The position numbers and the translations under genes were made by a program. From Cetorhinus maximus (lineage: Eukaryota), in assembly GCF_964194155.1 (NCBI RefSeq), contig NC_135893.1:16988001-17052000 (forward strand): a DNA stretch of 64,000 nt, written 5' to 3'. Below, in pieces: positions 1 through 56,331 of the stretch (positions within the stretch are counted from its first letter, which is position 1; each line of letters opens with the position of its first letter). A model generated the notes under the pieces. That model searched no databases. It worked only from the letters and a program-made list of their open reading frames with translations, and was not told the DNA's origin.

Positions 1-284
1 AGCAAGTATTATGCACGAAACATAGGTTGCACTTACCAGTTAGTTTAACTGTGGTATGAGGCTAAATTCCAGGCAATGAGATAGAGAGGTGAGAGAAAGG
101 GTGAGTTACCTGGCAGTAAATAATACATTTATAATATTACACAATCCTCCACCAGTTGCCTCAGCACCTCCACCCAATTCTTCATCCACTATTTCAAAAA
201 TGATGCATTCAGGTTTTAAAAACATTATTTTAATCAAATAATAAATTGCTGGAAAATGTATCAACTCATACAGCTGCTCCACCA

Positions 285-1857
285 ATTGGTATGACCCACC
301 TCCTGCGCCCTCAATCCTATTACCATTAAATTGCTGACCACCCAACTTCCCCTACTAGTCCCCTTGTTAGCCAATATTGGTTCTCTCCCGGTGTTGTCCC
401 TCTCTCTTTTAAATCTGCTGTCATAGCCTCTCTCCTCAAAAGACAACCCTTGTTCCTACTGTTCTTGCAAGCCTCTGCCTCATCTGTAATCTCCCTTTCT
501 TCTCCAAAGACCTTGAACTTGTGAATCACTGTCCGAATGCATTCCTATTTTTCCTGAAATTAAAAGTTTGAATCCCTCTAATCAGGTTTCCATCCCTGCT
601 ACAGTAGTGAAACAGCTCCTGTTAAAGTCATAAATGGCATTCTATGTGACTGTGTCAAAGGTAAACTTTCCCTCGCCATCCTTCTTGACCTGTCCGCAGC
701 CTTTGACATGGTTGATCATACCATCCTCCCCCAACACCTCTCTACAGTTGTCAGGCTGATCTCACCTGGTTCCATTCTTATCTATCTAATCAGTGCCAGA
801 GTAGCACTTGAAATGGCTGCACTTCCCACTCCCACACCATTACCTCTGGTGTTCCCAAGGACCTATCCTTGGCCCCTTCCTATTTCTCATCTACATGCTG
901 CTCCTCAGTGACATCATCTGAAAGCATCGTTTTTTTTACGTCTGCTGACAACACCCAGATCTACCTCACTGCCACCTTTCTTGACTCCTCCACTGTTGCT
1001 AAATTATTGGACTGCTTATCCAACACCCAGTATTGGATAAGCAAACCTTTCCTCCAATTAAATATTGGGAATACTGAAGCTATTGGTCACTGCTCCAAAC
1101 TTCAGTCCCCAGCTAATTATTCCATCCCTCTCGCTGACAACAGAGACTAAGCCTGTCTATTTGCAATATAAATGTCTTTATCTGACCAAAGGTTGAGCTT
1201 CCAACCACATAGTGCCATCACTAACATTGTCTATTTTCACCCTGCCTGACTTTGACCCTGTCCCAGATCATCTGCTGCTGGGACCCTCTATCATGCCTTT
1301 ATTACCTTTAGACTTGACTATTGCAATGCTCTCCTGGCTAGTCTCCCACATTCTACCCTTCATAAACTTGAGGTCATCCAAAACTAAGCTCTTACGTCTT
1401 AACTTACACTAATTCCCCAGCACCCCTGTGCTCGCTGACTTACATTGGCTCCCGATCCAACATCTTGATCTTAAAATTCTCATCCTTGTTTCCAAATCCC
1501 TCCATGGCATTGCCCTCCCCTATCTCCATCATCTCATCCTCCCCTACAACCCTCTGCGATATCTGCGCTCATCTAATGCTGGCCTCTTGAGCGTCCCCAA
1601 TTTTAATTGTTCCTCTATTGGTGCCTGTGCCTTCAGCTAGCTAGAGCCTAAGCTCTCACTCTATCTCTTGCGTCTCTACCTCACTTTTCACCTTTAAGAC
1701 ACTCCTTAAAACCTGCGTCTTTGACCAAGCTTTTGGTAATGTGACCTAATATCTCCATATATGGCTCAGTGTTGTATTTTGTTTTATAATGCTGTTGTGA
1801 AGCACCTTGGGACATTTTATTCTGCTAAAGGTGCTAAATAAATGTAAGTTGCTGTTG
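285..1857 (+). mobile_element. 5'-truncated, decayed L2-clade LINE (RT region plus 3' tail)
   Basis: Translates to RT motifs LDLSAAFDMVDH (~683-720), GVPQG-like (~848) and xADNTQIY (~940), then LHWLPI (~1440). Ends in the L2-type tail 'gtgaagcaccttgggacatttt...aaaggtgctaaataaatgtaagttgctgttg'. Many frameshifts. Confidence 0.85.
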
Positions 1858-3599
1858 AATGTGGTTGAATTCCATTCCTGAAGACCAAGGCCACATGGCT
1901 TGTCTTGAATCAGGTTTGATCTCTCTTTGTGTGAAGAATGATTTTTTGATATCATTCCTACATTCAAACCTGTTGTTTTCGATTATTATAGTGAACCTCT
2001 TTGTAAATTTTCTCTGCACTGGCCCCAGCACATCAGTAGCTCCCTGTTGCCTCAGTGACCTGCACTTCATAGAGGAGTCGAGGTGTGGTCTGAGGAGCTG
2101 ACTTATTGCTGACCTCTGACATGAAAGCCTGAACCGCTGAAATCCAGCCATTTCTGGTATGGCAAGTGAAATTGAGCAGGGCCCCTCAGTCAAAGCTCTG
2201 CACCAGAATGGGTCACCTCCATCTCTGTCATGGTTTCCCTCCCATGGCCTCTCTATGGCCCCGATCAATCTGCAGTGGTGGGGGTGGGGAGGAAAGGGCT
2301 GGCACAATTCCCAAACACAGTTTCAATCAGGAAGAATGTTTACATTGAAATTGCAGTTTCTGAGCAGTTAATGCTACTTTCTAAGTATTCCATCGATGGA
2401 AACAATACCAGCTGCCAGCACAGTGATGCTTAATGTCTGGCTGGTGGCTGGATTGAGCTCCACATGCATCAGGGTCTTCCACTTCATGTCCTGCCTCCAT
2501 TATTGCATTGCAGATAGAGGTTCTGAACTCCTCCAACTATACCATTGTCAGCACCATGAAAGAGAGAGTCTCCACTGTTTGCCTGTGAGACCAATCCTCC
2601 TGAATCATTGTTGCCTGGTCTTGGAATCCTCTTACTATTTCAACTCCAGGGGCAGACATCTCCTCAAACTGGAGCCCAACTGCTTCTCTTCACTGCTGTT
2701 CTGGGATCCACCCAGTAATATCAGCACTGTGTCAGCAACACTGCCTCCCTAAGTGGGTGTATTTCAGCTGCTGTTTGAGTGAACAAAATGCCAAGGCAGA
2801 ATTGGTGATTCAGATACAGAAAGGGTTCTTCTGGAGATGGTCAGATGCTTCTTTCTTTCAGTATTCACTACGTTTAAGGGATGTAAAGGATAACTAACTT
2901 ATACACTGTGCTGCTTATCACTTTCAGTGTTACTCTGCACCTCCTCTGAGAGAGCTGACTGCTGCCACTGTGATTCCCACAAAACCTTGGCCCACACCCA
3001 GGGTGGTAATTTTTGAACTGTCGATGACCTTTCATCAGAATAAATAAACAAATAACTTACATTTATACTGCATGTTATTCACAGGACACTCCAAAGTGTT
3101 TCACATAATACAAATTATTTGCAAGTACAGTCACTGTTGTTATGTAGGCAAACAGTTCACCCAATATCATGTACAACTAAGCACCATGGAACAGGGAGTC
3201 CTCAGCTTCAGTCCTTCGCTTGTGCTGAGATACCTGGCCTCAGTTACATCTGAACTCAAAGCCAATGGATTGGGGAAAATAAAACAAAAATCAACCAGGA
3301 TTCCTGCTCCTAAATCTTTATCAAAACATCTAGAAATGCATGTACATTTATATAAAGCCTTTCACAACCTCAGGATTTACAGCCAATGAAATACTTTTGA
3401 AGTGTAGTCTCAAATATCCCACGTAGATAATATCCCATGCCATGACTCAAGGAAGAGTAGGGGAATCCTCCATCATTCATCCAACATTCCTCCTTCAGTC
3501 AGTGCTGTCTGTGGAATCAGGATGTGCTGTTTACATACATTCTAGGATTTGTAACATTTTACCACTTCAAAATTAATTGGCTGTCAAGTGGTTCAGTGT

Positions 3600-5216
3600 G
3601 TCTGGAAGTTGTTCAAAGACTCTTGCTTCTTCCAATGTCACTAGCACAGGTATGGGTACCCACATGTACCCTAGTTATGCCTGCCTTTTGCGATGTATGT
3701 AGAACATTCCTTGTTCCAGCCCTACTAATCCCCCTCCTGCAACTCTTTTTGCAGTACATCAGTGCTGCTTCCTGCTCTCGTCCAGAACAGGAAAAATTCA
3801 TCAATTTTCCTTCCAGTTCCACCCCTCTCTCACCTTCCCATGGTCCATCTCCAACACTTCTCTTCCTTGACTTCTCTCTCTCCATTTCTGGTGATAGACT
3901 ACCAATATTCATTACAAGCCCACTGACTTCCACAACTACCTTGACTACAACTCCTCACACCCTGCTTCCTGTAAGGACACCATCCCATTCTCCCAGTTTC
4001 TCTGCCTCCGTTGCATCTGTTCTGATGAATACTACCTTCCACAACGGCACTTCTGATATGTCTTCCTTTTTCCACAGCTGAGGAATGCCCCCCCCACACC
4101 CCCACCATGGTTGACAAGGCCCTCAACCGTGTCCGACCCATTTCCCGCAATTCTGCCCTCACCCCTTCCCCTCCCTCCCAAAATCATGAAAGGGCTCCCC
4201 TTGTCTTCACTTTCCACCCCACCAGCCTCCACTTTCAAAGGATAGTCCTCTGCCATTTCCACCAACTCCAGCATGATGCCACCACCAAACACATCTTTCC
4301 CTCTCCTCCCAGAATTCCGAAGGGACCATTTGCTCTGTGACACCCTGGTCCACTCCTCCATCACTCCCAGCACCTCTTCTCCTTCCCACAGCACCTTCCC
4401 ATGCAATCACAGGTGGTGTGTAACACCTTCCATCTCTTCCTCCTTCACCATCCAAGGCCCCAAACACTCCTTTCGGGTGAAGCAGTGATTCGCTTGTACC
4501 TTTTGCAATTTAGTCTACTGTATTCGCTGCTCACAATGCGGTTTCCTGTACATTGGGGAGACTAAACACAGACTGGGTGACTGCTTTGCAGAACACCTTC
4601 ACTCAGTCTGCAAGCATGACCCTGACCTTCCTGTCGCTTGCCCTTTCAATTCATCATCTTACTCTCACGCTTACATCTCTGTTCTCAGCCTGCTGCAATG
4701 TTCCGGTGAAGGCCAATGCAAACTGGAGGAACAGCAGCTCATCTTTCGATTGGACACTTTACAGCCTTTTGGACTCAACATTGAGTTCAACAACTTCAGA
4801 CCATGAACTCTGTCTTCCATTTTGAATTTTTCCCCTTAGTGCTAATCTGCACCTTGTTCTCATTTTGTTTTAAGACAGTGCTGACCCTTTTTCTGCTATT
4901 AACACCTATTCTGGACCAAAGCTTTAGTCTTTAATACTATCATTACCAATCCCTTTGTCTTGTGTTCCATGACATCTTTGCCATTTAATCTCTTCTGCCC
5001 TCCAACCTATCCCTGACCTTCTATTCTGCTCCACCCGCCCCTCCCCCCTTAATGCAACAGCATTAAAACTCATCACATTTCTACCTCTCTCTAGTTCCGA
5101 AGAAGAGTCATATTGGGCTCGACGCGTTAAGTCTGTTTCTCTTTCCACAGATGCTGAGTTTTTCCAGCATTTTCTGTTTTTATTTCCAATCTCCAGCATC
5201 CACAGTATTTCGCTTT
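3600..5216 (+). mobile_element. Decayed Penelope-like retroelement (RT fragment, GIY-YIG endonuclease, 3' terminal repeat with degenerate hammerhead motif)
   Basis: MGTHMYPSYACL-like RT motif at ~3651. VYCIRCSQCGFLYIGETKHRLGDCFAEHL (GIY-YIG) at ~4513-4600. Terminal 'agttccgaagaagagtcatattgggctcgacgcgttaa...cacagatgctgagtttttccagcattttctg' at ~5093-5200. Confidence 0.85.
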
Positions 5217-5412
5217 TACATCAGCTACTCTATTCTCGCTTTCTGATGCTAACACACCCGCAGGACATTTTCTGCTTTAATTTCATATCTGATCCTCAGC
5301 ATACTGATAGAGCTGTGTCTATTTGAATGATAAACATCTAATGAGGTTAATTTTATTTAAGGCAAAATAAGATTCAGTCCTAATGATCTCTTATGTGAAA
5401 GAAAAGTGATCG

Positions 5413-5469
5413 AGCGCCATCTGGTGTTCCATTTGACATCTGCAGCAAGATAACAGCACCCTCCAGTGG
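5413..5469 (-). promoter_or_regulatory. Pair of CTCF-like motifs
   Basis: The minus strand reads CACCAGATGGCGCT (5413-5426) and CCACTGGAGGGTGCTG (5454-5469), both close to the CTCF core CCASYAGRKGGCRS. Confidence 0.5.
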
Positions 5470-6029
5470 AAAATAGCCAAAACTGAGTTGATTCCTCAAA
5501 TGTTATTTCCCTGATTCATAGTTACACTGAGCCATTTCATCAATAGAAAAACACAACTAGAATCATACATTTTCATTTTGATTTGAATATTTCACTAGTA
5601 CTGGACACAGGCTGGCTGCAGTGATTGAAGATTTAATCACAGATCTGCCACTAAATAAATCATAGAATCATACAGTGCAGGCCATTCTGCCCAGTGTGCC
5701 TGTGGCAGCTCTTTGAAAGAGTTATCCAATTGGTCCCACTCTGCATTCTCCTTCCACACAGCCCATAAAAGTGGAATGGGTTTTGATTCCCTCTGCAATC
5801 ACTGACTCTGCCTGCCCCTTCCATGGAGCGCATTGTAGTTCATCCTGATACTGCTCTCACCTGACCACCAACCATGTGGGTTTTCCGGCAGGGGTCTTTC
5901 TCTAATCAGGGAGCAGTTCTATCTTTTAGCAAACCTAACTGCTGCCAAACCAAGATTAGTGAGCTGGGCACAAGTCAGGGATTATACCAGTGCTGGTCTA
6001 AGGTACATTTGGAGAACGCAGGGGATTTA

Positions 6030-6290
6030 CGAGGGAACTTCAGCTATGCGGAGTGGCTAGAGAAGCTGGGACTGTTCTCCTCAGAAAAAGTTTGAGGAGA
6101 TATTTAATAAAGGTTCAAAATTATGAGGCACCTTGATAGAGTAAATAAGGAGAAACTGTTTCCACTGGGCAAAAGAAGTGGGAAGTTGAGGACATATTCA
6201 TGTTGTGATCTGGAATGCACTGCCTGAAAGGGTGATGGAAACAGATTCAACAGTAACTTTCAAAAGAGAATTGGATAAATGTTTGAAAAG
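6030..6290 (+). mobile_element. CR1 LINE 3' fragment
   Basis: Encodes SYAEWLEKLGLFS and IWNALPE, both typical of the CR1 ORF2 C-terminus. Confidence 0.75.
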
Positions 6291-7147
6291 GCAGCCCACT
6301 TGATTTCATCCACCCACCCAGACACTTGACCATCTCCCATTAACAGCTGCTTCTGGAGTCTGGGGTGCCATGAAGATGGACCTCAATGGCAGTAACCAAG
6401 GAAGAGTTTGGGGGGAGGGGGGTGTGTGGAACTGATGGCGGTGGGAGACCATGTGATAAAACCTCTAGGAATCTGTCGAGTTGGCAACCTTGTCCACATC
6501 TCCTTCCTCTAGCCCCATTCTATTGGGAAGAGATCTATAACTTCAAGCTGAAAGCATAAGCAAGTGATTGAGCTATGCCAGGAGATTAACAATAGCAGCC
6601 TCAAAGTCCTCATGATATTTGTTCAGTTTTATTTTCTTTTCTACTTTTCTCCCCTTGTGTCCTGAAGGTGTCAGCTCAAGCTAGGAGCAATCTCTCTGGT
6701 AACTTTCCCCATTAGCCTAGACATTGAATACCAGCACACTATTCAATCACGCAGGTTCTGATGGTCACCTATTTTCAAGCACAAGTCACTAGATAGTGAT
6801 ATGGAATTGCATCCCCCCACCACCACAGTGCTTAGGCTAATGGTAGCGCCCGTGGTAGTGGAGGTGACTGCCTCCCGAAGCTGAGATCAGCCTAGATAAG
6901 GAATGGAACCTGCAACCCACTGGTCTCTCCAGCACAAGGTCACAGCACACACTGCATTTATTCACTGATGTAGTAGCTTAATTTGTTCAATTCATTTTAA
7001 CTGTTTTCTTTGTTAATTACCATTTTTATATGCATCTTTTTGTAATTAGGGCGTGTGATATTTAGTGTCAGGAAATGAAAGAGTTTCTCATTTTGTACAT
7101 CCAGTGTCAGGGTTGACATGAAATACTCCCAGATTAGGTACAGCGCA

Positions 7148-7230
7148 GGTTAAATACAGAGTGAAGCTCCCAGTACACTGGGTAAATGCAGAGTAAAGCT
7201 CCCAGTACACTGGGTAAATACAGAGTGCAG
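7148..7230. repeat. Short tandem repeat, ~31-bp unit, ~2.6 copies
   Basis: 'ggtaaatacagagtgaagctcccagtacactg' is repeated with a few substitutions. Confidence 0.75.
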
Positions 7231-7532
7231 CTTCTGGCAGGCTACCCCAATTGTACCAGTCTGACATGTTTCATATAAGAGCCATCCTTGTGGCCTCTCT
7301 CAGTAAATGCATCAGCTTAGTGTGATCTCGTCTGGAGTCGGGGCAGTTTCGTGCTGTAGACTGCTGTCCAAGGGGAATTGGTTGGAGGCTGCAGGAATCT
7401 TAGAGCCTGCAGTCAGAGGAGTCTTTCAGCCTATTAATCTGGGCTGGATTTGAATTCAGGTCCCAGAGACAGAAGGCCAGTATTTAGCCCACAGGCCTGT
7501 CAGCAGCATATATAAGGACAATATAGAGAGAT

Positions 7533-7538
7533 TTTATT
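7533..7538 (-). terminator. Candidate THAP3 polyadenylation signal (AATAAA)
   Basis: The first canonical AATAAA I found on the minus strand downstream of the THAP3 stop, ~770 nt away. Confidence 0.35.
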
Positions 7539-8305
7539 CTTCATAAGGTTCCATCAGAATGGCACTAGACAGCATCCGAATCGTGTTCCAACACGACTGA
7601 TACCAGCGACAGTACAGTAGATAGCAATTAAAAAACACAGGCCCAACTAAACTGCCTGGGATCTGTACCTCGAACTGATGTACAATGTACAGATTTCCTT
7701 ACTCCTAGCAGTTACTACCCAAGGGGTTTGCTGCTTTACATTAACAGCACAGGATCTTGTAGAAGGAATTAAACTGGCAGATATTACAGAAGAGCAGCAA
7801 AGGAATTCACAGTCTGGGCATCAAGGCATCTCACATATAAGAAAGTAAATCTGATTTCTGGGCACGCAAGCAGGGCATAATTTGAACATCAGGGCTTCTT
7901 ATTGACGTGCAACGTGGTCCAAAAGGTCAGAGACTTGTGATCCCAAGCTGGCTGTCATCATGGGTCTCTCCCTGACTTATGACGGCCTGCCACACTCCAC
8001 GGCTAGAATTCCTTTCCACTCAGTTGCTGAGAAGTTCCCTGGGATCAGGAGGACAGCACGGCAGGTTATAATCATGGAGGGGAGAGACTAGTCGTGGTGT
8101 GACCAGCTTGATTTACATCCCGGCCATCATTTCTGGATTAAGAATGACTGTCTGTACTTCTGTCTTTAAACTGTTCAAGCTTCATTTGTTGCAGTCTTTT
8201 TGCACCAGCAAGTTGACACTGCTAGTTTTACCTTGTGGACCTCATGGAGACTCTGCAAGTTGTCCCCTCACTCACCACCTCATTGTCCTCCAAACAATCA
8301 GTGAT

Positions 8306-8626
8306 TTAGTTCATACAGCGCTGTAGCTGGGTTATGCCTGCGAGGTTCAGTCCGCTGGCTGTCAACAAACTCTTGGCTCTCAGATCCTCCAGCTCGTCCT
8401 TAACCGCTTGCCACTTCTTCATCATCCTCCTCATCTCCTCCTGCTTCACCTTCAGCCGTTTCCTCAGCTTCTCGTTTTTCTCCAGGGCAGAAAACAGCCT
8501 CTTCTTCATCATGCCCAGGTTTGTGGCAGCATAAGTGTGGTCAGCACTGCCCTCGGAGGGAGCACCTTTCTCTGGGGTTGCCTGCAGCGGGTTCTCCTGT
8601 CCTGCACTTGACGAGGGCAGGGGCAC
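8306..8626 (-). CDS. THAP3: THAP domain-containing protein 3, last coding exon (HCF-1-binding motif DHTY and coiled coil)
   Basis: Acceptor ttctgttccctcag|GTG, phase 0. Encodes DHTY ([D/E]HxY motif) followed by the coiled coil KKRLFSALEKNEKLRKRLK. Stop at 8306-8308. Confidence 0.9.
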   Translation of the reverse strand: MPLPSSSAGQENPLQATPEKGAPSEGSADHTYAATNLGMMKKRLFSALEKNEKLRKRLKVKQEEMRRMMKKWQAVKDELEDLRAKSLLTASGLNLAGITQLQRCMN

Positions 8627-9159
8627 CTGAGGGAACAGAAATCTGAGACTGAGTTAACGAAATAAAAGCTCATCACCGGGGCAAACACACAGGACCACAT
8701 GCTTATCCCCGCAGCTATGGGTGACCAACTCACATCCTTGCAGATGCACATGGCCATATGCTCCCCTGGAGTCGTGTGTGACCACTTTCCCTCTGCAGAG
8801 ATGCGTGGTCATTTTCCCCCTAATGATTGAGATTACATTGTGTCAGTAATGTGGGAGCACCCAAGCCTGTGTTCTCCTGGGCTGCATTGGGATCATGGAA
8901 TGTTGAGGGTCAATGATAAAGTTTACATCGCATTACATTAATTTGCATATACAGTTCCCATCACTTCAGCTGCCTGTGTTGGGTTAAAAGCACTAATCAT
9001 TAACCAAACACATCATTATCAACTTCAAAGTTGCCGTTTTTAGCGTATTAAACGCACCGTTTATTTTCAGGGGAAAACAGTCGTGTTTACTCACTAGTTT
9101 GCACCCTGTTAGGGTGCACTTAATGCCAAAGAAAAAGATATCAGTAAAATGTAAACAAC

Positions 9160-9290
9160 ACCTTGTGAAGAAAGATCATTAACCTGAAACCTTAACACTG
9201 TTTTTTTCTCTTCACAGATGCTGCCAGACCTGCTGAATGTTTCCAGCATTTTCTATTGTTTCAGGTTTCCAGCATCCGCAATATTACATT
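9160..9290 (+). mobile_element. Short Penelope-terminal-repeat-derived insert with degenerate hammerhead motif
   Basis: 'tgtgaagaaagatcattaacctgaaaccttaac...cacagatgctgccagacctgctgaatgtttccagcatt' is homologous to 5093-5216. Confidence 0.7.
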
Positions 9291-11811: not shown

Positions 11812-12004
11812 CTTCACAATCTCTGAGTAGCGGAAAACTGTGGGTACAGCATTATGCTTCAGATTCTTTCGGTTGCCCCAAGTGTTGAAACACTCTGGTT
11901 TGAAATGCTCTGAACAAATGACTGTGTGTTGGTTGGGTTTGAACTCTGCTCTTCCGACATTGTTCATCCACTGTGTTAATAGGTCTGGCTTGCTGAAGGG
12001 AAAC
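11812..12004 (-). CDS. THAP3: THAP3 coding exon 2 (THAP zinc-finger core)
   Basis: FPFSKPDLLTQWMNNVGRAEFKPNQHTVICSEHFKPECFNTWGNRKNLKHNAVPTVF closely matches vertebrate THAP3, including CSEHF and the AVPTVF box. AG/GT boundaries, 193 nt. Confidence 0.95.
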
Positions 12005-13492
12005 CTGAGCAACAGTGAAAGAGCATCAAGGAAAGAAACAGTCCAATGTTAAACAGCAAATCTCACCCCCTCCCGCCATGAACCTAGTTATGCCCTTCTC
12101 AAGTGCATTTAGGGATGGGCAATAAATGCTGGCCCAGCCAGCGACGCTCACATCCCATGAATGAATTTTTAAAATGTTTTGGACTCTGTGTTATCCCCCA
12201 GATTCCCTCTTCCCTCCCAACCATCGATCCACACTTAGCCACTGTCCCTGCCACTATCAGGCTCCTGTGAAAAACCCTAGAAATTTTGCTATGTTAAAAT
12301 CGCAAGTTGTTGTCTAGTCTCACAGCCTCAGTATGTTGTATAGCCACTGCATTAGATATATTTTTATCATTTCCTGGGGCGTCTCTCATATATTAATTAT
12401 TTATATAACTCATTACCAACTCTCAGGATCTACAGTAATCATTATTGTGGGTCCCTGGCTACTGACCTGTGGAAGTTTAACTCCGACTTGATAGTTTGCA
12501 AATTAATTAATTATATCAGTGACTGTTCACTCTCACTACATATGTTATTAATATTCTACAATCCAGGCTGACTGACCTATGGAAGCTCGGCTCCTTGTCT
12601 CTGATGTGTTATAATCTTTTAAAAATAATTAATTGATTAATTATTTATTTACATAAAACGGCTGATCATTCTCAGTATCGAAACTAATGATGCTGATCCT
12701 ATTGGTTACCTGCAACAGGTGAACTACCCATTCTGTTGGTAGCTATATGGTAATTTTACCCGTTAATTCATTGAATCATACACAATAAGAGGCCATTGGA
12801 CCCATCGTGGCTATGCCAGTTCTTTGAAAAAGTTATCCAATTAGTCCCACTCCCTTGCTCTTTCCCAATGCCCTACAAATTTGCCCTCATTAAGTATATA
12901 TTCAATTTCTTTTGAAAATTCCAATTGAATCTGCTTCCAAACCCCTTTCAGGGCATGTATGTCAGATCATTATAACATTCTGCATAAAAAATTCATTATA
13001 TAAAATGACCTCACTCTCAATATATACAACATTTGATTATTAATATTCAGGACTACTGGCTGATTTACCAGTGACATGTGAACTACTTGTTCTTGATGTG
13101 CTGCTGATGATTTATACCATTACTTTAACACATTAATTGATTAATTCTTTATATAAAATTACTGTATTTTGTCTATATATAAAATGACTATTCAGCATTT
13201 ATTTTGATTATTCACATTCTAAGCCCCTACCTGATTTACCTGGGACAGGTGAGCTCCTAATTCCTGATGTCTTGGTATTATAACAGCGTTTTTACACATT
13301 GATAGTAAAAAATTACCAGTATATACCTACACTTTGATTATTATGATTCTGGGTCCCTGTCTGATTTACCTATGATAGATGAGTTATTTGTCTCTGATAT
13401 TCTGTTGGTAGTTATGATATACATCTATACACATTAATTAATTATTGACATAAAATAATTGTTCACTCTCAGTACATGCATATTACAGTATT

Positions 13493-13724
13493 ATAAAAGT
13501 AAAATACTGCAGGTGCTGCAGATCTGAATGAAAACATGAAGTGCTGGAAAATCTCAGCAGGTCTGGCAGCATCTGTAGAGAGAGAAACAGAGTTAACCTT
13601 TTGAGTCCAATATGACTTCTTTGGAACAGTTCTGAAGAAGAGTAATACTGGACTCGAAACGTTAACTCTGTCAGATGCTGCCAGACCTGCTGTGATTTTC
13701 AAGCACTTGCTGTTTTCATTTTAA
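13493..13724. mobile_element. Palindromic Penelope-derived short element with hammerhead motifs and an 11-bp TSD
   Basis: Inverted arms 'tgctggaaaatctcagcaggtctggcagcatctg' / 'cagatgctgccagacctgctgtgattttcaagca'. Flanking direct repeat attacagtatt at 13482-13492 and 13725-13735. Confidence 0.85.
13628..13667 (+). ncRNA. Minimal type I hammerhead ribozyme motif
   Basis: Stem I AGTT(13628-31)/AACT(13664-67). Core CTGAAGA(13632-38) plus an extra A. Stem II GAGT/ACTC. GAAA(13656-59). Palindromic loopless stem III ACGT. Predicted cleavage after GUU (13663). Confidence 0.65.
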
Positions 13725-13931
13725 ATTACAGTATTGATGTTCTGGGTCCCTGTCTGATTTACCTGTGACAGGTGAGTTACTTGTCCCTGATGTGCTGTTG
13801 GTAGTTATGACAGTATCTGTACACATTAATTATTTATATAAAATGAATTTATATAAGATGCCCTCATTATTTTATAAAATGACTGTTCACTCTCAGTATA
13901 TATTGATATTCTGAGGCCCTAGCTGATTTAC

Positions 13932-14005
13932 CTGTGGAAGGTGAGCTCCTTGTTTTTGCTGCTGTACCTGTTGGTACAGTTATAGGCAGCACACGACTTG
14001 GGCAT
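13932..14005 (-). CDS. THAP3: THAP3 coding exon 1 (MPKSCAAYNCTNRYSSKNKELTFHR)
   Basis: ATG at 14005. Matches the THAP3 N-terminus MPKSCAA..C.NRYSS....LTFHR. Donor CAG|gtaaat, phase 2, compatible with exon 2. Confidence 0.95.
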
Positions 14006-14400
14006 GACCCAGCCCCGCTTCTGCCCCCCACAATAATGGCGGCCTAGCGGCAACACCCGGCCCACCGCGACCCCTCACAACAAAATGGCGCCGTTGCTTG
14101 GCGGCACAGCCAACACATCCGACCCCCCGAAAATATATATCAGGATGGCGGAGTTAAAAGTCCAAACTGCTCCCGGACGAGCTCCTCGCGCGTTTAACTT
14201 ACGGAAGCGGATTTAATTAATTATATATAAATATAAAAAAAAAATCTCGGAGGCGCGAGCCCTTTTACCGCAAACGCTGCTGGGATTTTTTTCCGCGGGG
14301 GAGGGCAAGGGGAGGAATGTGCTCAATGACGCATTTGTACGTAAGGAGGGCGGAGTCTCGGGCATGCGTGATGACGTCACAGACAGCGCCGCAGGTGGCC
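14006..14400 (-). promoter_or_regulatory. THAP3: THAP3 5' UTR and CpG-rich promoter
   Basis: CpG-dense. YY1-like ATGGCG motifs at ~14034, 14082 and 14144. ETS-like CGGAAG at ~14202. GC box GGGCGG at 14348-14353. Perfect CRE TGACGTCA at 14372-14379. Confidence 0.75.
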
Positions 14401-15144: not shown

Positions 15145-15450
15145 ACCGCAAGTGTAACCAAGCTTCCCATTTTAATTCTCTGCCCCGCACCCAATCTGAC
15201 CTCTGCATCCTTGGCATCCTACATGTTCCAATGAAGCGCAATGGAAGTTCAAAGAACAATACCTCATCTTTCGATTAAGCACTTTACAATCTTTTGGACT
15301 CATTACTGAATTCTACAATTTCAGATGGTAGCCATTGCTAACCTTTCTCAGGTCTAACAATAGTTCATCCACCTTAAATCTCAACTCTGCTTCTCCCCCA
15401 ACCAATGCTGTCTGTCCTGCTGAGAACTTCCAGCTTTTTATTTCTTTGTT
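15145..15450 (+). mobile_element. Penelope-like element 3' fragment
   Basis: Homologous to 4605-4800 ('ctcatctttcgattaagcactttaca...ggactca'), followed by a degenerate terminal repeat. Confidence 0.7.
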
Positions 15451-18999: not shown

Positions 19000-19190
19000 A
19001 AATATTGGCAATCTAAAATAAAATCAGGAAATGCTGGAAATACACAGCAGGTTAGTCAGCACATGTAAGCAGAGAAGATAGGTGTGTGCACCCTTAGTCA
19101 GAACTCATGAAATATTAATTTACTTTTACCGACTCTCAGATGTTGACAGAACGGTGGTGTATTTCCAGCATTATCTGGTTTTATTGCACA
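19000..19190. mobile_element. Old palindromic Penelope-derived short element in the PHF13 3' UTR
   Basis: Inverted arms 'aataaaatcaggaaatgctggaaatacacagc' / 'ggtggtgtatttccagcattatctggttttatt'. Confidence 0.65.
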
Positions 19191-19825: not shown

Positions 19826-20052
19826 TCAGTCGAGGAAGTGTTTTCTGCAGCCGGTTCGAGACCGGTTCGATCGCCGAATGTCGTATTTGGAGTCTCGACA
19901 CCTTTGGCAGACGTACACCTCTGGGACATTGGACTTGCGGATTTTGGCACAGGACAGGTGGATCCAGGTACCACACTCATTGCATTCAATCATCGGCCGA
20001 CCGGCAAACGGCTTCATGCAGTAACATGTCACCAGGTCCCAGGAATCATCAT
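19826..20052 (-). CDS. PHF13: PHD finger protein 13, last coding exon (PHD finger)
   Basis: [68 protein letters not shown]...FLD* is nearly identical to vertebrate PHF13. Phase-1 acceptor. TGA at 19826-19828. Confidence 0.96.
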
Positions 20053-20099
20053 CTGTTCCAGGAGGAAGGTCCAAAGGTTAATCACAAATCAGATCAACA

Positions 20100-37063: not shown

Positions 37064-37202
37064 GATAAAAACAGAGTACTGCAGATGCTGAAAATCTAAG
37101 ACAAAAACAGAAAACGCTGGAAAAACTCAGCAGGTCTAACAGCATCTGTGGAGAAAAAAAAAACAGTTAACATTTCGAGTCTATATGACTCTTCTTCAAA
37201 GC
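37064..37202 (-). mobile_element. Short Penelope-derived hammerhead-bearing insert with a 14-bp TSD
   Basis: Minus strand TTGAAGAAGAGTCATATAGACTCGAAATGTTAAC. Flanks tgcacctgtatcaa (37050-37063) and tgcacctgtaacaa (37203-37216). Confidence 0.8.
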
Positions 37203-38184
37203 TGCACCTGTAACAATTCGGTTTACTGTTGGTCACAGGTATTGCTTAGTAAGGGCAGATTAAAGCAGTCAGTTCAAGCCAATTTAAGAAGAGCATTAAA
37301 TCAGTCAGTTGAAGAATGGCTCATTTCCCGGCAATCCTACTCCCTTGTGATGTTGGAGTATTGCAATGTTTCTGTCATGAATTGATTGCGATCGATTATG
37401 CTGCTTGGTTGCGCTGAATCACGGGAGGTTTTACACTGGGGTTTAGGCTAATGAGACTGCATGGAAATTTCAGCAAAACTTCATGCAGCAGCAGTACAAT
37501 GTTCTGTGCATTCTGTTGATTCCACCATTGGCATCTATGCCCACATTTGTACTACAATTAATTACTTTTTGGAACATGGTGGCTTGTATAGATAAACGTT
37601 GGTTCTGTGCCAATACATCCCCACCAACAGCAATAATGCCTAATCTGTTGTCATGGTGATTGAGGGAGAAATGTGGCCAAGACACTGGGGAAAAGACTGT
37701 TCTTTGAACAGCCTGGGGATCTTGAGCATCCATGTCAAAAAGCAGATGAAGGTTGCTGTTTAATGCCTCAGCACCTCTGCAATACTGAGGAGTGCCAAGT
37801 TGAAGTTGTCAATGGGCTGGTGGGGATGAGTTTATCGAACCCTATGACCTGCTGACCCAGAGGTGGAAGTGTTAACCATTGAGACAAGCTGACACCAGCC
37901 CTGTTATAAAGACAGAAACTGCTGGGAGCATGCACAGGATCAGTAATGGAAAAAACAAGTTGTGACATTTGTGACAAGTATGTACCCTTCGCGGATACTG
38001 ACTGTGTGTATTTCTGGCATTTGCAGCTTGTCCTCTTTTATTTGATATTTCTGTCTTCATGCCACATACATTCTCACTGTATCAATTATGATATAACCAA
38101 CTGCTAGGAGATGCATTAAGAGTTGGGAATGGGGATGTTTAACATTGTATTTTCCTTAGTGTCACATCTGAAATCAGGAATTGT

Positions 38185-41797: not shown

Positions 41798-41995
41798 GAA
41801 TAAAAACAAAAAGCTAAGAGCTACTGCGGATGCTGGAAATCCAAAACAAAAACAAAATTACCTGGAAAAACTCAGCAGGTCTGGCAGCATCGGCGGAGAA
41901 GAAAAGAGCTGACGTTTCGAGTCCTCATGACCCTTCAACAGAACTGAAGTATAGTTAGGAGAGAGGTGAAATATAAGCTGGTTTAAGGTGGGGGG
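41798..41995 (-). mobile_element. Penelope terminal-repeat fragment with variant hammerhead motif
   Basis: Minus strand AGTT CTGTTGA A GGGTC ATGAG GACTC GAAAC GTC AGCT, followed by the family tail GATGCTGCCAGACCTGCTGAGTTTTTCCAG. Confidence 0.8.
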
Positions 41996-49424: not shown

Positions 49425-50410
49425 AGAAAGATTTGCTTTTATATGCTACTGTTCTTTACCTCGGGATGTCAAAAGTGCTTTACAGGAAGTGAAACTGCTG
49501 TCGTAATGTGTAAAACCCAGCAACCAAATTATATACAAAAAGATCCCACAAGCAGCAATGTGATAATGACTAGAAAATTTGTTTTGGTAATGTTGGTTGA
49601 CAGATAAATATTAGCCAGGACACTTTTTATTCTTTCATGGCAAGGCCAGCAATTGTTGCTCCATCCCTCACTGCCCTTGAGAAGGTGGTGGTGAGTCACC
49701 TTCCTGAAGTGCTGCAGTCCATGTGGTGCAGGTACACTCTCAGTGCTGTTAGGAAGGGAGTTCCAGGAATTTGACCCATTGACAGTGAAGGAATGGCAAT
49801 ATAGCTCCAAGTCAGGATGGTGAGTGGCTTGGAGGAGAATTTGCAGGTGCTGGTGTTCCCATGTATCTGTTGCCCTTGTCCTTCTAGTGGTAGAGGCTGT
49901 GGGTTTGGAAGCTGCTGTTGAAGAAAGCTTGACGAGTTGTTGCAATGCATCTTATAGTATACACTGCTGCCACTGAGTTGGTGGTAGAGGGAGTAAGTGT
50001 TTTGAGGCAGTGGACAGGGTTGTTGATCAAACAGGCTTTTTTTGTGTTGGAGCAAATGGACAGTATTCCATTACACAAAAAACAGAAAATGCTGGAAAAA
50101 CTCAGCAGGTCTAACAGCATCTGTGAAGAGAAAGACAGTTAACGTTTTGAGTCCGTATGGCCCCTCTTCAGAGTATTCCATCACACTCCTGGCTTGTGCC
50201 TTGTAGACAATGGACAGGCTTTGGGGACTTTGGAGGTGAGTTACTCAATGCAGAGTTCCCAACCCCTGACCGGCTCTTGCCATGGGATGTTTTACATTCA
50301 CTCTTTCATGTCTTTCAGATGAAAGACCTCCTACAGTGCTGCACTCCCTGGGTCCTGTCAGCCTAGATTATGGTGCTGGAGTGCCTGGAGTGGGACTGGA
50401 ATCCACTCTG
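49425..50410 (-). mobile_element. Nested cluster: Deu SINE interrupted by a LINE 3' fragment, itself interrupted by a hammerhead-bearing Penelope-derived insert (50077-50171)
   Basis: SINE halves at ~49425-49622 and ~50290-50410. LINE fragment at ~49625-50285, homologous to 53395-53705. The innermost insert is flanked by agtattccattacac / agtattccatcacac. Confidence 0.75.
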
Positions 50411-56020: not shown

Positions 56021-56038
56021 TGGCATAAAGAACGGCCA

Positions 56039-56253
56039 ACAGAAAATGCTGGAAAAACTCAGCAGGTCTGACAGCATCTGTGGAGATGCATTAACGTTTT
56101 GAGTCTGTATGACTCTTCTTCAGAGCTCATGCAGTCATACAGACTCAACGTTAACTCCACTTCTCTCTCCACAGATGCTGTCAGACCTGCTGAGTTTTTC
56201 CAGCATTTTCTGTTTGTATTTCAGATTTCCAGCATCCGCACTATTTTGCTTTT
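56039..56253. mobile_element. Palindromic Penelope-derived short element with a 14-bp imperfect TSD
   Basis: Perfect inverted arms acagaaaatgctggaaaaactcagcaggtctgacagcatctgtggaga / tctccacagatgctgtcagacctgctgagtttttccagcattttctgt. Flanks ataaagaacggcca and atgaagaatggcca. Confidence 0.85.
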
Positions 56254-56331
56254 ATGAAGAATGGCCAGCCACCTGGTCATGGGAAGGAAAGGATCAGTCA
56301 GTGAGTGTTGTGTCTGTTTTTTGTCTAACAG

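What the first reader, a model, noticed from the sequence alone, without database searches (positions are those of the whole stretch)
13628..13667. Apparently intact minimal hammerhead ribozyme inside THAP3 intron 1
All conserved core nucleotides are present (CUGAAGA, GAAA, GUH = GUU). Stem I is AGUU/AACU and stem II is GAGU/ACUC. Stem III is a loopless palindrome (ACGU), which in Penelope-type minimal hammerheads implies activity as a dimer. An extra A between A9 and G10.1 is known to be tolerated in natural hammerheads. It lies on the plus strand, antisense to THAP3, about 270 bp from exon 1.
Basis: partly seen in the sequence, partly recalled or inferred. Interest (0 to 1): 0.7.

Follow-up and report, generated by a model that had tools for sequence, protein, structure and literature searches.

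The report
Decayed Penelope hammerhead in shark intron
The small self-cutting-RNA motif is really in the sequence, but it is one of more than 11,000 look-alike leftovers of a known kind of jumping gene in this genome, lies on the strand opposite the host gene, and is predicted to be locked inside a long hairpin, so it likely cuts nothing.

Summary
The motif is there as described and is not chance (0 hits in 300 simulated windows). It is not a feature of the host gene. It is the minimal hammerhead at the end (pLTR) of a Penelope-like retrotransposon: 11,262 genomic sites match a strict version of the motif, and longer copies carry an RT plus GIY-YIG ORF. This copy is a 232-bp head-to-head stub (13493-13724) with an 11-bp target-site duplication and a one-sided tail. 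It is likely inert. It is antisense to the spliced THAP transcript. The inverted arm penalises the ribozyme fold by about 30 kcal/mol. No dimer partner lies in the window. Both arms have decayed about 12%, like their paralogues. The canonical CUGA probably arose by CpG decay of a CCGA source (subfamily sample: CA 35, TG 33, CG 20 of 100). The probable orthologue in a related species has G5U. Family-level side results: an abundant subfamily carries A6U, and stub 5' ends pile up at a predicted TATA/Inr start. The scan has noted this kind of element many times on other DNA (155 findings, at least 23 genomes; unchecked notes). Ordinary; interest low.

The parts
13482..13492 (+). Left copy of the 11-bp target-site duplication
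   Evidence: Longest word shared by the two flanks, 11 nt
13493..13627 (-). Inverted pLTR arm of a Penelope-like element, carrying the ~35-nt optional tail at its outer end
   Evidence: Self-alignment; alignment of 24 copies; family 3' ends fall in two classes, +95 to +103 and +126 to +139
13591..13627 (-). Broken hammerhead copy on the THAP sense strand (CCAA at core 3-6, 2-nt deletion at stem II, G12A, C15.2G)
   Evidence: Read directly from the sequence
13628..13724 (+). Forward pLTR arm, 5'-truncated at the first base of stem I, with no tail and an 11-nt deletion after 13671
   Evidence: same sequence flanks RT + GIY-YIG ORFs in L073-L077
13628..13667 (+). Minimal type-I hammerhead motif (the finding); predicted cut between 13663 and 13664
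13725..13735 (+). Right copy of the 11-bp target-site duplication
12005..13931 (-). Intron 1 of the THAP-domain gene (THAP3 by recall) that hosts the insertion
   Evidence: Joint 12002/13930 in contigs of runs X4, X1, X8; Pfam THAP on exon 2
13932..14230 (-). Exon 1 of the THAP gene (ATG at 14005); 5' end at least 14230

Best explanation
The motif is the minimal hammerhead carried in the pseudo-LTR of a very abundant Penelope-like retrotransposon, and this copy is a 232-bp head-to-head stub insertion that is likely dead and neutrally decaying. Shown: element boundaries, target-site duplication, inverted arm with one-sided tail, parent ORF with RT and GIY-YIG similarity, antisense orientation, copy number, equal decay of both arms. 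Inferred mechanism: the element's RT/endonuclease nicked this intron and primed at the tail sites about 100-135 nt downstream of the hammerhead. It copied an uncut RNA back to the first base of stem I, likely the RNA's 5' end because a TATA-like box and an initiator-like motif sit there in longer copies. A second, inverted copy was made in the same event. Inferred inactivity: the THAP pre-mRNA carries only the reverse complement and the broken twin. A plus-strand transcript would make the inverted arm first and trap the core in a 200-nt hairpin. The motif also needs a second copy to form helix III. The source element probably read CCGA, so the textbook CUGA here likely came from deamination of a methylated CpG rather than from selection.
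For: Copy number: 5,644 + 5,618 strict pattern matches against 0 + 0 for the control; 26,216 exact matches to a 21-mer of the arm. Parent: 14 of 30 strict-match loci run more than 40 nt into a shared upstream body that translates to RT-thumb and GIY-YIG-like peptides. All 5 long-ORF loci fetched (756-926 aa) have the arm next to the ORF. Pfam RVT_1 hits 2 of 3 ORFs (E 1e-4, 2e-4) and GIY-YIG 1 of 3 (E 3e-3). Architecture matches the inverted pLTR + one-sided tail + TSD described in PMC3846280 and PMC8557442 (passages). Fold: element -126.8 kcal/mol; forcing the hammerhead costs 30.5; with only 28 upstream nt it costs 17.2; with the forward arm alone 3.2. Decay: right arm 11 of 95 and left arm 13 of 103 columns differ from the majority of 29 paralogues, whose median is about 12%; 1 of 29 paralogues keeps the strict core; 1 of 30 copies picked by tail alone does. 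CpG origin: with core positions 4-5 left open, the first 100 of 842 matches read CA 35, TG 33, CG 20, other 12 (counted by hand; CA vs TG p=0.90). The sister arm reads CA, and 6 of 8 hairpins readable on both arms (of 23) are discordant, 3 of them TG/CA. Related species: contigs bridge both junctions, so the insertion is shared. An 80-nt contig over 13585-13664 with 4 differences has G>T at 13634, which is G5; the closest of 137 fetched loci differs at 10 and the junction 24-mer occurs only twice in this genome. In the anole PLE, ribozyme mutants did not affect insertion and cleavage needed the PLE protein (PMC11167929).
Against: No cleavage assay and no stranded reads were available, so inactivity is predicted, not shown. 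The Pfam hits on the parent ORF are below the curated cut-offs; 0 of 5 shorter fragments hit and the PDB search found nothing, so the Penelope call also leans on architecture and on motifs read by eye. The isolated 40-mer does fold as a hammerhead, and an RNA starting at 13628 would pay only about 3 kcal/mol. The related-species G5U rests on one unanchored 80-nt contig (depth 8.8) and could be a paralogue, an allele or an error. The 100-match samples come from the start of contigs C1-C2 only. 2 of 8 hairpins are TG/TG, so some source elements may have had the canonical core.
Confidence: 0.88

Rival explanations
1. The copy is cleavage-competent and is cut occasionally, without host function: a short plus-strand RNA starting at or near 13628 pairs with another family RNA through ACGU, or is folded by the PLE protein.
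For: All core letters and both stems are present. Without the inverted arm the fold penalty is only 3.2 kcal/mol. Family RNAs are common in RNA-type contigs of related organisms. Protein-assisted cleavage is shown for the anole PLE (PMC11167929).
Against: The TATA-like upstream sequence found in longer copies is replaced here by the inverted arm. Unconstrained cofolding of two 40-mers does not give the dimer hammerhead. A Schistosoma minimal motif showed no monomer activity and only low dimer activity (PMC4209133).
Confidence: 0.07
2. The hairpin is a self-propagating non-autonomous unit (MITE-like or retrozyme-like) copied as a whole.
For: Many copies share the two-armed form: at least 23 distinct hairpins among the best hits. 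The same junction type recurs in another subfamily (L111/L112).
Against: Junctions vary from copy to copy. The window's junction 24-mer has only 2 genomic matches, and the second continues differently. Only 5 of 30 and 7 of 30 sampled motifs have an adjacent inverted arm. There is no head-to-tail tandem arrangement.
Confidence: 0.04
3. A domesticated antisense ribozyme that cuts plus-strand read-through RNA before it reaches the THAP promoter, and so regulates the gene.
For: The core is intact, it lies 265 nt from exon 1, and the insertion is shared with a related species.
Against: Hairpin sequestration, neutral-level decay, probable CpG origin of U4 and probable G5U in the orthologue. About 0.18 such motifs are expected per window by copy number alone.
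Confidence: 0.02

Closest known systems
Minimal type-I hammerheads (min-HHR) in the pLTRs of metazoan Penelope-like elements (Cervera and De la Pena 2014, PMC4209133; parts 1-2 of 4 read)
   Same: Core letters, unpaired base between 9 and 10.1, G10.1-C11.1 pair, palindromic 15.2-16.2 with no loop 3, 4-bp helix I, thousands of dispersed single copies from truncated PLEs, pairs on opposite strands.
   Different: Helix II is 4 bp, against 7-8 in the Schistosoma families. The parts read name no cartilaginous fish, and the supplements were not seen. The U4C and A6U subfamily cores are not mentioned in the parts read.
Complex insertions of endonuclease-positive PLEs: inverted 5'-truncated pLTR, one-sided 30-40-bp tail, TSD (PMC3846280 and PMC8557442, passages; PMC8969392, passages)
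   Same: Head-to-head arms, tail on one arm only, 11-bp TSD (8-10 bp in the Adineta examples).
   Different: Here both arms are cut back to about 100-135 bp and no ORF remains.
Poseidon element of Anolis carolinensis, PAc (PMC11167929; parts 1-2 of 4 read)
   Same: Hammerhead about 100 nt upstream of two 3' end classes that define the tail; insertion apparently from uncut RNA.
   Different: In PAc the ORF starts at stem II; I did not establish the start codon or clade of this family (one search was inconclusive).
Non-LTR retrozymes (bioRxiv 10.64898/2026.07.22.740005; part 1 of 5 and passages read)
   Same: Non-coding, PLE-pLTR-derived, type-I hammerhead.
   Different: Retrozymes are head-to-tail tandems with a hammerhead in each unit; this is a head-to-head pair with one broken arm.
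Conserved intronic hammerheads of amniotes, RECK and C10orf118 (PMC3088659, passages)
   Same: A hammerhead motif inside a vertebrate intron.
   Different: Those are conserved across species and self-cleave in vitro. This one is a high-copy repeat, antisense, lacks a monomer helix III and shows no sign of constraint.

Membership tests
Metazoan PLE minimal hammerhead | Core CUGANGA, GAAA, NUH | tested here: met
   H17 = U
Metazoan PLE minimal hammerhead | Extra base between 9 and 10.1, and a G10.1-C11.1 pair | tested here: met
   A13639; G13640-C13655
Metazoan PLE minimal hammerhead | Palindromic 15.2-16.2 with little or no loop 3 | tested here: met
   ACGU at 13659-62
Metazoan PLE minimal hammerhead | Lies in the pLTR of an RT + GIY-YIG element | tested here: met
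   Same arm flanks long ORFs in L073-L077; Pfam RVT_1 and GIY-YIG hits, below curated cut-offs
Metazoan PLE minimal hammerhead | Self-cleaves as a dimer or with protein help | not testable with these tools
   No assay; folding predicts sequestration in context
Endonuclease-positive PLE insertion unit | Adjacent inverted 5'-truncated pLTR | tested here: met
Endonuclease-positive PLE insertion unit | 30-40-bp tail on one end only | tested here: met
   Left arm ends in the long class, right arm in the short class; family 3' ends bimodal over 90 loci
Endonuclease-positive PLE insertion unit | Target-site duplication | tested here: met
   11 bp
Penelope/Poseidon versus Neptune or other clade | RT phylogeny and RT-EN linker motif | not tested
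Non-LTR retrozyme | At least two head-to-tail units, each with a complete hammerhead | tested here: not met
   One intact motif in 64 kb; the partner is inverted and broken
Non-LTR retrozyme | Circular RNA product | not testable with these tools
   Only contigs were available
Domesticated intronic hammerhead (RECK / C10orf118 type) | Core conserved at the orthologous site across species | tested here: inconclusive
   Probable orthologue has G5U, on one unanchored contig; arm decay equals paralogue decay
Domesticated intronic hammerhead (RECK / C10orf118 type) | Present in the host pre-mRNA and able to fold as a monomer (feature recalled) | tested here: not met
   Antisense to the spliced transcript; no monomer helix III; sequestered

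The most novel reading that the evidence does not exclude
At family level, this Penelope lineage amplified repeatedly with non-canonical ribozyme cores (an older U4C wave that made this copy, and an abundant A6U wave: 59 of the first 100 of 15,904 matches, and all 4 long-ORF loci whose cores were printed). Its 100-135-bp stubs are run-off, strong-stop-like cDNAs that end at a TATA/Inr transcription start placed on the first base of hammerhead stem I. The motif would then be kept mainly as the 5' end and promoter region of an RNA that is copied uncut, and some 'perfect' genomic hammerheads are CpG-decay accidents.
Probability: 0.4. Interest if true: 0.4.

Novelty: new member of a known kind. 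Interest (0 to 1): 0.13.

Why it matters
As a locus it matters little: it is a fossil retrotransposon end, and any scan of this genome will meet an intact-looking copy in roughly one 64-kb window in six. The practical lesson is that an intact hammerhead core in such a genome is not evidence of function, and can even be created by CpG decay of a variant core. The family-level observations (variant cores in successful subfamilies, stub ends at a predicted transcription start) bear on the open question of why Penelope elements keep hammerheads and how they are copied, and they are testable. Unchecked notes of this scan report them too.

Tried and rejected
Rfam: no hammerhead model matched; the mir-3923 hit (33.8 bits against a cut-off of 94) only reflects the long hairpin and is rejected as a miRNA call. 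Sequencing runs: no RNA holder was listed for this organism and all runs were contigs, so strand, starts and cut ends could not be examined; this is no evidence on expression. Source of plus-strand read-through: 0 of 57 plus-strand frames in 1-9000 hit Pfam, so no convergent gene was found by this weak test. Idea that stubs are spliced-in host exons joined at an AG just before the core: where a TSD of 8 nt or more was found (6 of 51 short copies, against 2 of 51 in the control) it lies within 0-6 nt of the motif's 5' edge, which leaves no room for a transduced exon, but the signal is thin and a splice-site explanation is not excluded. Start codon of the parent ORF: inconclusive. Naming the THAP paralogue and the PLE clade through the protein atlas was not possible. 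Two lines (dinucleotides at 11.1-12 and 15.2-16.2) had wrong offsets and were discarded. Lunse et al. (dimer cleavage) and Ambros and Flores (U4C) were not held and are cited only through PMC6765202, PMC9608096 and PMC3088659. No passage on the rate of GUU sites was found, so I make no claim on it. Searches for a paper describing this shark family listed none; one search was swamped by hammerhead-shark papers, so absence from print is not established.

Full report
1. Observation. It is the only hit of a minimal type-I descriptor on either strand of the window, and 300 simulated windows gave none. Alone it folds into stems I and II, weakly (-3.7 kcal/mol; 147 of 200 shuffles fold at least as well). 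Rfam has no match at gathering thresholds and no hammerhead model at E<=10. RNA-type contigs of runs X4, X1 and X8 (three organisms, three studies; 'RNA' is the tool's guess) all skip 12003-13929 with CT..AC ends, which places an intron at 12005-13931 on the minus strand. The motif is therefore antisense and 265 nt from exon 1. Exon 2 encodes a THAP domain. The names THAP3 and 'shark' are recalled or inferred, not tested.

2. The motif sits in a repeat. Self-alignment shows a ~200-nt inverted repeat centred on 13628 that folds at -126.9 kcal/mol, z -14.7. The flanks share an 11-nt word at 13482 and 13725, a target-site duplication around a 232-bp insert. About eight more stubs of the family lie in the window. 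In the genome, a DNA search gave 4,554 first-look candidates, 40 scored. A strict hammerhead pattern that this copy satisfies matched 11,262 times against 0 for the control, or 0.18 per 64 kb. A 21-mer of the arm matched 26,216 times.

3. The parent is a Penelope-like element. Of 30 strict-match loci, 14 continue more than 40 nt into a shared upstream body whose frames resemble an RT thumb and a GIY-YIG nuclease (read by eye). A search with one such frame gave 81,492 candidates, 150 scored. Five loci chosen for long open frames hold ORFs of 756-926 aa, each with the arm downstream and three of them with a direct copy upstream too. [quoted passage not shown] The 3' ends of 90 loci fall mainly in two groups about 35 nt apart, the optional PLE tail. 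The window insert has the tail on its inverted arm only. This is the inverted-pLTR, one-sided-tail, TSD structure described in PMC3846280 and PMC8557442 (passages), and the hammerhead is the min-HHR of PMC4209133 (parts 1-2 of 4).

4. This copy is likely inert. The THAP pre-mRNA carries the reverse complement of the motif plus the left-arm twin, which is broken at G5, G12, C15.2 and stem II. On the plus strand the inverted arm would be made first: forcing the hammerhead fold costs 5.9 kcal/mol from 13620, 17.2 from 13600 and 30.5 for the whole insert, with stem probabilities near zero; only an RNA starting at 13628 gets by with 3.2. No second intact motif lies in the window. Published minimal motifs showed no monomer activity and low dimer activity; the anole motif cleaved only with its protein, and ribozyme mutants did not affect insertion (PMC11167929, parts 1-2 of 4).

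5. No sign of selection. The right arm differs from the majority of 29 subfamily copies at 11 of 95 columns and the broken left arm at 13 of 103; the paralogue median is about 12% (one of 30 loci was dropped as the second arm of another). One of those 29, and 1 of 30 copies chosen by tail alone, keeps a strict core, so intact survivors are a minority, but there are thousands of them. With core positions 4-5 left open in the window's 8-nt-loop subfamily, the first 100 of 842 matches read CA 35, TG 33, CG 20, TA 4, AG 4, AA 2, CT 1, GG 1 (hand count). Equal CA and TG (p 0.90) with CG surviving is the pattern of a decaying CpG; from a TG source, CA would need two changes. The two arms of this insertion read TG and CA, and 6 of 8 hairpins readable on both arms (of 23) are discordant. 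So the source most likely read CCGA, and U4 here is likely secondary. U4C is a known natural variant, slower in vitro but enough for a viroid (PMC3088659 and PMC9608096, passages). In run X15 (organism B) contigs 12838-13556 and 13642-14300 bridge the two junctions, so the insertion predates the split. An 80-nt contig over the central junction has 4 differences, including G>T at G5. It is probably the orthologue, since the nearest of 137 fetched loci differs at 10 positions and the junction 24-mer occurs twice in this genome, but it is a single contig not tied to unique flank.

6. Family-level side results. With core positions 4-7 open, the first 100 of 15,904 matches were UGUU 59, canonical 32 (UGAA 18, UGAU 14), UGGU 5, other 4 (hand count). 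The four long-ORF loci whose cores were printed all carry A6U. A6C is known to slow cleavage in magnesium (PMC7151607, passages); A6U was not found there. In the 30 tail-picked copies, 9 run past the 200-nt ruler and 16 of the other 21 end within -7 to +7 of C3; two of the 16 look like other subfamilies that do not align to the ruler and two are arms of one insertion, so the true count is lower. Only one copy begins near the predicted cut. In 34 body-bearing copies picked by eye, 24 have a TATA-like word 26-31 nt upstream of stem I, and the first base of stem I lies in an initiator-like context (consensus recalled). A putative TATA plus initiator is described in a rotifer pLTR, whereas Drosophila Penelope has a TATA-less internal promoter and an intron ending at helix I. 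I infer a transcription start at the first base of stem I and run-off cDNAs as the source of stubs; a 3' splice site at the same place is the rival.

7. Earlier notes. I reached the readings in sections 3-6 before the word look-ups (notes). The scan lists 155 findings in at least 23 genomes with these words and 46 in this genome, including the promoter reading, the A6U reading and, in another genome, a decay origin of a canonical core. They are unchecked AI notes and are not used as support.

8. Verdict. Observation confirmed; interpretation partly supported. A new member of a known kind, most likely a fossil. Supplements of PMC4209133 (motif tables) and of the retrozyme preprint were not seen and may already list chondrichthyan motifs; the preprint reports retrozymes in the one chondrichthyan it sampled. 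Interest 0.13.

Noticed in passing
window 12500-13960, minus strand: Intron 1 contains decayed duplications of the exon 1/intron 1 junction, each with a copy of the 5' splice site (13762, 13369, 13239, 12576). The Penelope stub landed inside one of these units. The spliced contigs seen use only the 13931 donor.
   Followed up: partly
window 13592-13573, minus strand: The inverted arm keeps a pyrimidine tract ending in CAG on the THAP sense strand, a possible cryptic splice acceptor; the forward arm lost the same tract by an 11-nt deletion. No listed contig joint used it.
   Followed up: partly
window 13493-13724, minus strand: On the THAP sense strand the insert also folds into a long hairpin (-121.8 kcal/mol), a possible A-to-I editing or Dicer substrate (inference).
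   Followed up: no
window 5093-5218, 9192-9285, 15383-15434, 19010-19076, 37065-37204, 41822-41946, 50079-50172, 56038-56255: Eight further stubs of the same or related Penelope ends; none passes the hammerhead descriptor.
   Followed up: partly
L073-L076 (G000 C7, C31, C18, C2183): Long-ORF copies carry an A6U hammerhead core in their pLTRs; 59 of the first 100 pattern matches do too.
   Followed up: partly
L031-L060, L080-L139: 5' ends of short copies pile up at the first bases of stem I, about 29 nt downstream of a TATA-like word in longer copies.
   Followed up: partly
window 19826-20077, minus strand: PHD-finger exon (Pfam PHD_5, E 1.7e-8) of the upstream gene, PHF13 by recall.
   Followed up: no
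window 12094-12174: A second, different high-copy repeat end lies in the same intron (very high contig depth).
   Followed up: no
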